Positions 57,976 through 58,380 of a stretch of DNA of 64,000 bases are shown here, in pieces (position 1 is the stretch's first letter; the number at the start of each line of letters is the position of its first letter). Source of the stretch: Escherichia coli. GTDB taxonomy: Bacteria; Pseudomonadota; Gammaproteobacteria; Enterobacterales; Enterobacteriaceae. The notes below the pieces were generated by a model. The model worked only from the letters and a program-made list of their open reading frames with translations. It searched no databases and was not told where the DNA came from. Location: assembly GCF_965641715.1 (NCBI RefSeq), contig NZ_OZ282453.1; one strand, written 5' to 3'. The position numbers and the translations under genes were made by a program.

Positions 57976-58380
57976 TGCCGGATACGGCCTACGGTTCGGC
58001 ACAGACTTGTAGGCATGATAAGACGCGACAAGCGTCGCATCAGGCATTGTGCGCCAACTGCCGGATGCGGCGTGAACGCCTTATCCGGCCTACGGTTCGG
58101 CACAAACCTGTAGGCATGATAAGACGCGACAAGCGTCGCTTCAGGCATTATGCGCCGACTGCCGGATGAGGCGTGAACGCCTTATCCGGCCTACGGTTCG
58201 GCACAGACTTGTAGGCATGATAAGACGCGACAAGCGTCGCATCAGGCATTGTGCGCCAACTGCCGGATGCGGCGTGAACGCCTTATCCGGCCTACGGTTC
58301 GGCACAAACCTGTAGGCATGATAAGACGCGTTAAGCGTCGCATCAGGCATTATGCGCCGACTGCCGGATGCTGCCTACGA
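57976..58380. repeat. tandem BIME/REP array (about 4 units of ~100 bp, each a REP pair)
   Basis: gtaggcatgataagacgcgacaagcgtcgcatcaggc ... gccggatgcggcgtgaacgccttatccggcctacggttcggcaca repeated with starts near 58011, 58110, 58211, 58312; spurious small ORFs only. Confidence 0.9.

What the first reader, a model, noticed from the sequence alone, without database searches (positions are those of the whole stretch)
57976..58380. Four-unit tandem BIME/REP array between convergent yjjW and yjjV
About 400 bp of almost perfectly repeated ~100-bp units, each a REP pair, arranged as two ~200-bp super-repeats. Arrays like this bind IHF/gyrase and are hotspots for copy-number variation and IS insertion; it is the largest repeat block in the window. 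The six-frame ORFs inside it are artefacts of the repeat.
Basis: seen in the sequence. Interest (0 to 1): 0.3.

Follow-up and report, generated by a model that had tools for sequence, protein, structure and literature searches.

The report
Known E. coli REP repeat array
This is an ordinary, already catalogued block of four tandem "REP" palindrome pairs sitting between the ends of two converging E. coli genes; its copy number differs so much between strains that it is already used as a typing marker.

Summary
Window 57976-58378 holds a 101-bp tandem repeat, 3.8 copies at 93% identity. It alternates two unit subtypes, so it also repeats every 202 bp. It fills the spacer between convergent yjjW (+) and yjjV (-). 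Each unit is a Y REP plus an inverted Z2 REP joined by 12- and 16-nt linkers, which is the definition of a BIME-2 array. The locus is already known three ways. It is EcoCyc REP352 in K-12. It is the 101-bp MLVA marker ms32, whose published primers bracket the array. Three of its units also pass the Rfam gathering score for naRNA4, a model built on a BIME-2 unit. Copy number at this locus runs from 0 to 6 units in complete E. coli genomes and reaches 11 in another Escherichia species. One strain carries the BIME-specific IS1397 inside the REP here. One point needs correcting: IHF binding belongs to BIME-1, and this array has no Z1 REP, no long linker and no IHF consensus. The most likely function is inferred, not shown. 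It is probably a two-way 3'-UTR hairpin block that protects mRNA and partly stops readthrough, and possibly a gyrase site. Its length changes by unequal recombination or slippage. Verdict: already known, low interest.

The parts
57110..57973 (+). yjjW (glycyl-radical enzyme activase) CDS. Its TGA stop lies 2 nt before the array.
   Evidence: ORF list; RefSeq annotation of homologous loci.
57789..57808 (+). Binding site of the published MLVA ms32 primer AACTGGCGGCGTTTATCAAG (1 mismatch).
   Evidence: primer sequence from PMC8215070.
57976..57992 (+). Left boundary 'mini-Y', TGCCGGATACGGCCTAC. It is a Y REP lacking the 18-nt hairpin top and does not form a significant hairpin.
   Evidence: The same position holds a full Y REP in strain PE164. 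Fold energy is -6.8 kcal/mol, z-score -1.0.
57993..58008 (.). Tail-to-tail linker, subtype a (GGTTCGGCACAGACTT).
58009..58046 (-). Z2 REP, unit 1. The GTAG foot reads on the + strand; by the Bachellier convention it is inverted relative to the Y REPs.
   Evidence: blastn to Z2 consensus 97%; hairpin -15 kcal/mol, z-score -4 to -5.
58047..58058 (.). Head-to-head short linker, subtype g (TTGTGCGCCAAC).
58059..58093 (+). Y REP, complete (TGCCGGATGCGGCGTGAACGCCTTATCCGGCCTAC).
   Evidence: 100% to Y consensus; hairpin -21 kcal/mol, z-score -4.6 to -5.3.
58094..58109 (.). Tail-to-tail linker, subtype b (GGTTCGGCACAAACCT).
58110..58147 (-). Z2 REP, unit 2. It carries a substitution (T at 58140) not seen in the 13 other alleles read.
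58148..58159 (.). Head-to-head linker, subtype h (TTATGCGCCGAC).
58160..58194 (+). Y REP, complete. It carries a substitution (A at 58169) not seen in the 13 other alleles read.
58195..58210 (.). Tail-to-tail linker, subtype a.
58211..58248 (-). Z2 REP, unit 3, identical to unit 1.
58249..58260 (.). Head-to-head linker, subtype g.
58261..58295 (+). Y REP, complete.
58296..58311 (.). Tail-to-tail linker, subtype b.
58312..58349 (-). Z2 REP, unit 4 (loop variant TT).
58350..58361 (.). Head-to-head linker, subtype h.
58362..58378 (+). Right boundary 'mini-Y', TGCCGGATGCTGCCTAC. It does not fold. K-12 has a full Y REP at this position.
58012..58090 (-). Rfam naRNA4 (RF02564) match, 76.7 bits against a gathering score of 59.5. 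It covers inverted Y, the short linker and Z2, read in the yjjV sense.
58113..58191 (-). Rfam naRNA4 match, 68.6 bits.
58214..58292 (-). Rfam naRNA4 match, 76.7 bits.
58389..59171 (-). yjjV (TatD-like metal-dependent hydrolase) CDS, 260-aa allele. Its TAG stop lies 10 nt outside the right mini-Y.
   Evidence: RefSeq annotation.
58427..58446 (-). Binding site of the published MLVA ms32 primer TGAGATTGCCGAAGTGTTGC (exact match).
   Evidence: primer from PMC8215070.

Best explanation
The feature is a BIME-2-class array of repetitive extragenic palindromes in an E. coli chromosome. It is the same locus that EcoCyc lists as REP352 in K-12 and that MLVA typing schemes call VNTR ms32.

Anatomy (shown). 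The order is mini-Y, then three (linker, inverted Z2, linker, Y) units and a fourth unit whose closing Y is the right mini-Y, with a 101-bp period. The unit subtypes run (a,g)(b,h)(a,g)(b,h), which gives the 202-bp super-repeat. The array occupies almost all of the 415-bp spacer between the stop codons of convergent yjjW and yjjV.

Function (inferred from what is established for this class, not measured at this locus). Both converging transcripts run into the array, and no intrinsic terminator lies between the genes. The stable Y hairpins (-21 kcal/mol) and Z2 hairpins (-15 kcal/mol) would then act in either direction as barriers to 3'-to-5' exonucleases and as partial, Rho-assisted attenuators of readthrough into the antisense of the opposite gene. 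As DNA, the Y REPs may recruit gyrase where convergent transcription piles up positive supercoils.

Dynamics (shown by comparison). The array changes by whole 101-bp units, through unequal homologous recombination or replication slippage between units. Small slippage deletions also remove hairpin tops. The REP loop is a target for IS1397.
For: Structure:
- Repeat calls.
- Y and Z2 REPs in alternating orientation at 92-100% identity to consensus.
- Hairpin energies with z-scores of -4 to -5. The whole array folds with z-scores of -7.2 and -9.3 on the two strands.

Class definition: BIME-2 is z2 + y in multiple tandem copies with a short linker and a copy number that varies between strains (Ton-Hoang 2012, PMC3333891).

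Identity of the locus:
- K-12 has the same four-unit array, 97% identical.
- A preprint names it REP352a-h and notes that it overlaps yjjV by 2 nt (10.1101/2024.07.17.603846).
- The ms32 primers map at 57789-57808 and 58427-58446, and the reported repeat size is 101 bp.
- It has the same architecture as REP325. The REPs are 95-97% identical, the linkers only about 50%.

Function by analogy:
- No intrinsic terminator lies in the spacer.
- REP325 acts as a partly Rho-dependent terminator and an mRNA stabiliser. REPs between convergent genes correlate with higher expression of both genes, and 78 REPs lie in bidirectional terminators (10.64898/2026.03.23.713779).
- Gyrase cleavage sites are enriched in a subset of BIME-2 elements, in y more than in z2 (PMC6379681).

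Dynamics:
- Spacer lengths step by 101 bp. A spread sample of 59 genomes gives 0:1, 1:19, 2:11, 3:5, 4:10, 5:13, and 6 units appear.
- The five genomes with at least 99.3% identical flanks carry 2, 4, 4, 4 and 2 units.
- Linker subtypes are shuffled between strains while the ends stay anchored.
- Escherichia sp. MOD1-EC7003 has 11 units and Escherichia sp. E1V33 has 2 at the same locus.
- IS1397 sits in the REP loop with an AAAC duplication.
Against: - No expression, 3'-end, gyrase or half-life data for this locus were available. Supplement searches for yjjV or yjjW found only one non-significant yjjW row in an expression table.
- The same 2026 preprint finds no genome-wide half-life difference for REP-terminated genes, and effects that depend on context.
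- Alleles with no units exist, in which a single Y REP is the whole 38-bp stretch between the yjjW stop codon and the conserved yjjV 3' end (spread-sample tally 1 of 59). The array length itself is therefore not essential.
Confidence: 0.85

Rival explanations
1. The units are genes for naRNA4-type nucleoid-associated noncoding RNAs. Read-through from yjjV would be processed into about 77-nt two-hairpin RNAs that bind HU and help condense the chromosome.
For: - Three units exceed the Rfam RF02564 gathering score on the minus (yjjV-sense) strand: 76.7, 68.6 and 76.7 bits against 59.5.
- Qian et al. 2015 reported that naRNA4 from REP325 acts in HU-dependent condensation, and suggested that homologous sequences might share the role (PMC4550694).
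Against: - The Rfam model is in effect one BIME-2 unit. It also hits the plus strand at 47-53 bits and another BIME at 44907-44985.
- A 2026 preprint that includes Adhya, an author of the cited 2012 HU-binding RNA paper, finds that deleting or overexpressing REP325/naRNA4 does not change nucleoid volume. It also finds that REP-REP contacts are not seen in Hi-C.
- No convincing promoter lies in the array: two weak promoter-like hits against 1.3 expected.
- The predicted best fold of the unit is one long hairpin, about as stable as the two-hairpin fold.
Confidence: 0.08
2. The array has no selected host function. It is a neutral or selfish minisatellite that persists because REP pairs are spread by the RAYT transposase and then expand and contract by recombination.
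For: - Copy number ranges from 0 to 6 in E. coli and reaches 11 in another Escherichia species, with no preferred value.
- Near-identical flanks carry 2 or 4 units.
- Hairpins are lost by small deletions without apparent consequence: the mini-Y ends, and a 19-bp deletion in TB06051.
- TnpA_REP cleaves and recombines BIMEs in vitro.
Against: - At least one REP is retained between the two stop codons in all 14 alleles read from this locus, including the zero-unit alleles.
- The array position is conserved across three Escherichia species.
- Experimental evidence exists for local regulatory effects of a comparable array.
- This reading is not exclusive of the main explanation. Array length may be neutral while the presence of a REP is useful.
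Confidence: 0.3
3. The array is an IHF-binding BIME-1 / RIB-RIP type element, as the first reader's 'IHF/gyrase' wording implies.
For: REP elements as a broad class include IHF-binding members. A partial Y + Z1 pair elsewhere in the window, at 54475-54536, may be of that type.
Against: - The array has no Z1 REP, only Y and Z2.
- The linkers are 12 and 16 nt, not the long L motif.
- There is no WATCAANNNNTTR match in or near the array.
- BIME-1 occurs as single copies, not as tandem arrays.
Confidence: 0.02
4. The repeat encodes a repetitive protein or small proteins, from the ORFs at 57975-58169 (+), 57804-58148 (-), 58141-58350 (-) and others.
For: Open frames of 33-114 aa cross the array.
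Against: - None has a Pfam match at E-value up to 0.1.
- No CDS is annotated in the spacer in any of 13 RefSeq genomes.
- Unit number changes, and the 18- and 19-bp deletions seen would break any frame.
- Frames open on both strands are the expected by-product of a GC-rich palindromic repeat.
Confidence: 0.01

Closest known systems
REP352 (EcoCyc, E. coli K-12 MG1655, yjjV-yjjW intergenic region)
   Same: Same locus, same four 101-bp units, the same left mini-Y and 97% identity overall.
   Different: - The K-12 array ends in a complete Y REP whose GGCCTAC supplies the yjjV stop codon, giving a 259-aa YjjV. In the window a 17-nt mini-Y and 10 nt of unique sequence separate the array from a different stop, giving 260 aa.
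- The last head-to-head linker in K-12 is subtype g, not h.
- The window has two substitutions (58140, 58169) not seen in the 13 other alleles read.
VNTR ms32 of the Shigella/E. coli MLVA panel (101-bp repeat)
   Same: The published primers flank the array and the repeat size is 101 bp. The predicted amplicon is 658 bp, allele 4. The reported size range of 355-810 bp fits 254 bp + n x 101.
   Different: None in substance. One primer has a single mismatch in this strain.
REP325 / naRNA1-6 (yjdM-yjdN BIME-2 array of K-12)
   Same: Same architecture of Z2, short linker, Y and spacer, with a period of 100 against 101 bp. The REPs are 95-97% identical. Units match the Rfam naRNA4 model.
   Different: - REP325 has six units between tandem genes of one operon. 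Here four units lie between convergent genes.
- The linkers are only about 50% identical.
- The functional data exist for REP325 only.
BIME-1 / RIB-RIP elements
   Same: Both contain a Y REP paired with an inverted Z-type REP in a 3' intergenic region.
   Different: BIME-1 uses Z1, has the long L linker with an IHF site, and occurs as a single copy. None of these applies here.

Membership tests
REP / palindromic unit (E. coli Y and Z2 types) | A 30-40 nt imperfect palindrome with the conserved GTAG/CTAC tetranucleotide at its foot and a mismatch in the stem. | tested here: met
   Three Y REPs at 97-100% and four Z2 REPs at 92-97% identity to consensus. Folds show an interrupted stem, at -21 and -15 kcal/mol.
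REP / palindromic unit (E. coli Y and Z2 types) | Extragenic location. | tested here: met
   The whole array lies between the yjjW stop (57973) and the yjjV stop (58389).
BIME-2 | Built of Y and Z2 REPs in alternating orientation. | tested here: met
   strict alternation Z2(-), Y(+), and no Z1.
BIME-2 | Multiple tandem copies with a short head-to-head linker, and no long L linker or IHF site. | tested here: met
   3.8 copies; linkers of 12 and 16 nt; no IHF consensus. Definition from PMC3333891.
BIME-2 | Number of tandem units at a locus varies between strains. | tested here: met
   0-6 units in E. coli; 2 and 11 units in other Escherichia species.
BIME-2 | High-affinity binding and cleavage by DNA gyrase. 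| not testable with these tools
   Class-level evidence only (PMC6379681). No locus-specific entry was found in the held supplements.
BIME-1 (RIB/RIP, IHF-binding) | Y + Z1 REPs separated by the L linker carrying an IHF site, as a single copy. | tested here: not met
   No Z1, no IHF consensus, and a tandem array.
Rfam RF02564 naRNA4 | Covariance-model score at or above the gathering threshold (59.5 bits). | tested here: met
   76.7, 68.6 and 76.7 bits on the minus strand; the fourth unit scores only 30.3.
Rfam RF02564 naRNA4 | Exists as a discrete ~77-nt RNA that binds HU and affects the nucleoid. | not testable with these tools
   No expression data for this locus. The function itself is disputed by 10.64898/2026.03.23.713779.
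MLVA VNTR ms32 | Amplified by the ms32 primer pair; repeat unit of 101 bp. | tested here: met
   Primer sites have 0 and 1 mismatch, unique in the window, and flank the array. Period 101.
REPIN (RAYT-associated REP doublet) | Two inverted REPs able to form one long hairpin. | tested here: met
   The predicted best fold of the 79-nt Y-linker-Z2 unit is a single long hairpin at -38.6 kcal/mol.
REPIN (RAYT-associated REP doublet) | Association with a RAYT (tnpA_REP/yafM) gene in the genome, and classification by RAREFAN. | not tested
   The RAYT gene was not looked for in the window. The literature reports that K-12 REP352 was the one REP region of eight not called a REPIN by RAREFAN.
Intrinsic (Rho-independent) terminator | GC-rich hairpin followed by a U tract. 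| tested here: not met
   No terminator-like site between 57973 and 58389 on either strand.

The most novel reading that the evidence does not exclude
The allelic state of this array may act as a heritable dial on the two flanking operons. That state is the unit number plus the type of right-hand junction.

In K-12-type alleles the yjjV stop codon lies inside a stable Y REP hairpin. That geometry is reported to cause REP-dependent translational down-regulation. In the window-type allele the nearest stable hairpin is about 40 nt from the yjjV stop codon and about 35 nt from the yjjW stop codon. The two allele classes would then differ in YjjV output.

The unusually divergent ~600 bp on each side of the array (95-97% identity to K-12, against 99-100% further out) could mark old haplotypes kept with each junction type.
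Probability: 0.12. Interest if true: 0.35.

Novelty: already known. Interest (0 to 1): 0.1.

Why it matters
It matters little as a discovery. The element is annotated in K-12, belongs to a repeat class described since the 1980s and 1990s, and is already exploited as a typing marker.

Its practical value is for annotation:
- The ORFs inside it should not be called.
- The three Rfam 'naRNA4' hits should be read as BIME-2 units rather than as demonstrated sRNA genes.
- The spacer length should be expected to differ between strains, and it may collapse or mis-assemble in short-read data.

It is also a convenient natural allelic series, from 0 to 6 units in E. coli and up to 11 in the genus. That series could be used to test the current proposal that REP arrays tune 3'-UTR termination and mRNA stability.

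Tried and rejected
- IHF site. The consensus WATCAANNNNTTR gave 4 hits in the window, none within 12 kb of the array, and no more than chance. Rejected.
- Intrinsic terminator or promoter inside the array. No terminator was found. The one promoter-like hit (9 of 12 matches) is within the chance expectation.
- Coding potential of the internal ORFs. No Pfam hits and no RefSeq CDS.
- RAYT cleavage as the origin of the mini-Y ends. TnpA_REP cuts at C|T, but the 18-nt deletion endpoints are GC|GG, flanked by GGC direct repeats. Slippage across the hairpin fits better. A 19-bp deletion in TB06051 is likewise flanked by GCG repeats.
- A fuzzy-regex REP scan timed out and was replaced by blastn-short.
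- Locus-specific experimental data. Searches of the supplements of the gyrase Topo-Seq paper, the 2026 REP preprint and Ton-Hoang 2012 for yjjV, yjjW or REP352 gave nothing usable.
- Gilson 1991 (PMC333889) is not held. The Liang et al. paper on REPs near stop codons was not found and is cited only through.
- In one search some records appeared to lack yjjW. This was an artefact of the 40-piece limit on a repeat-rich query. The flank-only query shows both genes in 5391 of 5423 genomes.

Full report

Yes. Tandem Repeats Finder reports a single array at 57985-58371 with period 101, 3.8 copies, 93% matches, no indels and score 690. The repeat finder places three in-register 192-nt copies at 57977, 58078 and 58179. 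It is the only sizeable tandem repeat in the 64-kb window and its longest repeat family.

Units 1 and 3 are identical apart from the truncated first REP. Units 2 and 4 are 93% alike, and neighbouring units 91-94% alike. Four diagnostic linker positions alternate between odd and even units.

The flanking ORFs are 57110-57973 (+) and 58389-59171 (-). RefSeq annotation of the homologous region names them yjjW and yjjV, convergent. The neighbourhood is 98-99% identical to E. coli chromosomes, so the window is from an E. coli strain. No complete RefSeq genome has exactly this allele; the best flanks are 99.9% identical and the best whole locus 99.0%.

**2. Anatomy**

blastn with REP consensus sequences finds four Z2 REPs (58009-58046, 58110-58147, 58211-58248, 58312-58349). 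They alternate, in opposite orientation, with three complete Y REPs (58059-58093, 58160-58194, 58261-58295).

- The head-to-head linker is 12 nt, in two subtypes: g = TTGTGCGCCAAC and h = TTATGCGCCGAC.
- The tail-to-tail linker is 16 nt, in two subtypes: a = GGTTCGGCACAGACTT and b = GGTTCGGCACAAACCT.
- The window reads (a,g)(b,h)(a,g)(b,h), which is the 202-bp super-repeat.
- Each end of the array is a 17-nt 'mini-Y' (57976-57992 TGCCGGATACGGCCTAC; 58362-58378 TGCCGGATGCTGCCTAC). This is a Y REP without its 18-nt hairpin top.

Isolated Y and Z2 hairpins fold at about -21 and -15 kcal/mol, with z-scores of -4 to -5. The mini-Y ends do not fold better than shuffled sequence. The whole array is strongly structured on both strands, with z-scores of -7.2 and -9.3.

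There is no IHF consensus in or near the array. There is no intrinsic terminator between the two stop codons. The internal ORFs have no Pfam match and are not annotated in any of 13 RefSeq genomes.

**3. What it is**

Ton-Hoang et al. (PMC3333891) summarise the classification. BIME-1 is z1 + y, single copy, with a long L linker that often carries an IHF site. BIME-2 is z2 + y, in multiple tandem copies with a short linker, and its unit number varies between strains. The array meets every sequence criterion for BIME-2 and fails those for BIME-1.

It is the same element as in K-12 MG1655, where the yjjV-yjjW spacer is 419 bp and aligns at 97%. A preprint that uses EcoCyc names calls it REP352a-h and notes that it overlaps yjjV by 2 nt (10.1101/2024.07.17.603846).

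It is also the MLVA marker ms32. The published primers (PMC8215070) map uniquely at 58427-58446 (exact) and 57789-57808 (one mismatch). The published repeat size is 101 bp. The predicted 658-bp amplicon equals 254 + 4 x 101, on the same scale as the reported 355-810 bp range.

Rfam scores three units above the naRNA4 (RF02564) gathering threshold on the minus strand. That model derives from REP325, the yjdM-yjdN BIME-2 array. I fetched REP325 and compared it. It has the same Z2, linker, Y, spacer plan with period 100. Its REPs are 95-97% identical to those here, but its linkers only about 50%. The model also scores the plus strand at 47-53 bits and hits another BIME at 44907-44985. The hits therefore identify BIME-2 units rather than a locus-specific gene.

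**4. Variation between strains**

A query made only of the 400-bp flanks found both flanks joined in 5391 of 5423 genomes. The spacer steps by 101 bp.

- In a spread sample of 59 genomes the unit counts were 0:1, 1:19, 2:11, 3:5, 4:10 and 5:13.
- Six-unit alleles appear among the closest matches.
- The five genomes with at least 99.3% identical flanks carry 2, 4, 4, 4 and 2 units. Unit number therefore changes on short evolutionary distances.

Reading thirteen alleles shows the following:

- The first unit always starts with subtype a. Where the right junction is the window type, the last unit ends with h. The inner subtypes are shuffled, as expected for unequal recombination or slippage between units.
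- JX21CE8's four units look like an O157-type pair followed by a Res13-type pair.
- The zero-unit allele is a single Y REP that fills the spacer between the two stop codons.
- PE164 has a full Y where the window has the left mini-Y.
- TB06051 has lost 19 bp of one Z2 between GCG direct repeats.

Strain L1PEag1 carries an IS annotated as IS1397 family in the loop of the single Y REP, flanked by an AAAC duplication. IS1397 is described in the literature as inserting specifically into REPs (references). At most 32 of 5423 genomes lack a joined locus, so large insertions here are rare.

A scan of species-representative genomes with the tail-to-tail linker found the same locus in two other species. 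Escherichia sp. E1V33 has two units. Escherichia sp. MOD1-EC7003 has eleven units and a 1121-bp stretch between the same yjjW and yjjV sequence anchors used for the other alleles. Both have the left mini-Y and a K-12-type right junction. The array is thus older than E. coli, and the window-type right junction is probably the derived state.

**5. How it most likely works**

The sequence anatomy and the population dynamics above are shown. The function below is inferred from the class.

With no intrinsic terminator between the converging genes, both transcripts must enter the array. For the comparable REP325, deletion and Northern experiments show partly Rho-dependent attenuation of downstream transcription and protection of the upstream mRNA. 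Genome-wide, REPs between convergent genes go with higher expression of both genes, and 78 REPs lie within bidirectional terminators (10.64898/2026.03.23.713779). Gyrase cleavage sites are enriched in a subset of BIME-2 elements, mainly in Y REPs, and the signal rises rather than falls when transcription is blocked with rifampicin (PMC6379681). This fits a role in relieving supercoiling between converging transcription units.

I could find no data specific to this locus.

The nucleoid-condensing naRNA4 model (PMC4550694) is now contradicted by a 2026 preprint that includes Adhya, an author of the 2012 HU-binding RNA paper cited in PMC4550694. I rank it low.

A neutral-minisatellite reading of the array length is compatible with all the data. 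It is not exclusive of a role for the presence of at least one REP, which is retained in all 14 alleles read from this locus.

**6. A detail worth recording**

The right junction comes in two classes. In K-12, AHB5, L1PEag1 and the two other Escherichia species, the terminal Y REP supplies the yjjV stop codon (780-nt gene in the E. coli records). In the window and most other alleles read, a mini-Y and 10 nt of unique sequence precede a different stop (783-nt gene).

REPs within 15 nt of a stop codon are reported to lower translation, and K-12 REP352 was noted as meeting that distance. In the window allele the nearest stable hairpin is about 40 nt from the yjjV stop codon and about 35 nt from the yjjW stop codon. 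The effect, if any, should therefore differ between allele classes. This is inference only.

Identity between the window and K-12 falls to 95-97% within about 600 bp on either side of the array, against 99-100% further out. Half of all genomes are only 90-95% identical to the window across the 800-bp flanks.

**7. Verdict**

Its interpretation is supported, except that IHF binding belongs to the other BIME class. The element is already known as REP352, ms32 and a BIME-2 array, and its behaviour matches the class. Interest is low.

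Noticed in passing
window 523-572: An inverted pair of the same 17-nt hairpin-less 'mini-Y' (TGCCGGATGCGGCCTAC ... GTAGGCCTTATCCGGCA) separated by 16 nt. This suggests that truncated Y REPs recur as a form elsewhere in the genome.
   Followed up: partly
window 58362-58391 versus L001 (K-12): The yjjV 3' end has two forms. In K-12-type alleles the TAG stop lies inside the terminal Y REP (259 aa...LFNVP*). In the window-type allele it lies 10 nt beyond a mini-Y (260 aa...VFNVRG*). Two other Escherichia species share the K-12 type.
   Followed up: partly
window about 57450-59050: Identity to K-12 drops to 95-97% in the ~600 bp on each side of the array, against 99-100% further out. Half of 5,423 E. 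coli genomes are only 90-95% identical to the window over the 800-bp flanks. This is a local peak of divergence around the BIME.
   Followed up: partly
L006 4401-5869 (E. coli L1PEag1): IS1397 (IS3 family) is inserted in the loop of the single Y REP at the yjjW-yjjV locus, with an AAAC target duplication.
   Followed up: yes
L017 3230-4350 (Escherichia sp. MOD1-EC7003): An eleven-unit version of the same array (1121 bp between the yjjW and yjjV sequence anchors) in a non-coli Escherichia species. Several units have a 1-nt shorter Z2 loop.
   Followed up: partly
L011 (E. coli TB06051), unit 2: A 19-bp deletion removes half of a Z2 stem between GCG direct repeats. This is a second example, besides the mini-Y ends, of small deletions across REP hairpins.
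   Followed up: partly
window 44838-44988, 40453-40592, 26362-26467, 54475-54536: Other BIMEs in the window:
- Y-Z2-Y with a naRNA4 hit of 69.1 bits at 44907-44985.
- Z2-Y-Z1 (atypical) at 40453-40592.
- Y-Z2 at 26362-26467.
- A partial Y + Z1 pair that could be BIME-1 at 54475-54536.

   Followed up: no
window 26397-26439: The Rfam ES036 (CssrF) sRNA hit (38.8 bits against a gathering score of 37.6) lies exactly between and over the Y and Z2 REPs at 26362-26467. It may be another REP-derived model match rather than an independent sRNA.
   Followed up: no
window 14979-15131, 17865-17942, 31721-31840: Rfam hits to the sok antitoxin RNA (a chromosomal hok/sok locus), tpke11 and the thr operon leader. 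The thr leader shows that the window runs across the K-12 coordinate origin, in reverse orientation.
   Followed up: no
window 43254-44674: Two internal direct repeats at 73-74% identity, spaced about 850-950 bp apart. They probably reflect the duplicated ATP-binding domains of the ABC-F gene ettA (gene name by synteny with L015).
   Followed up: no
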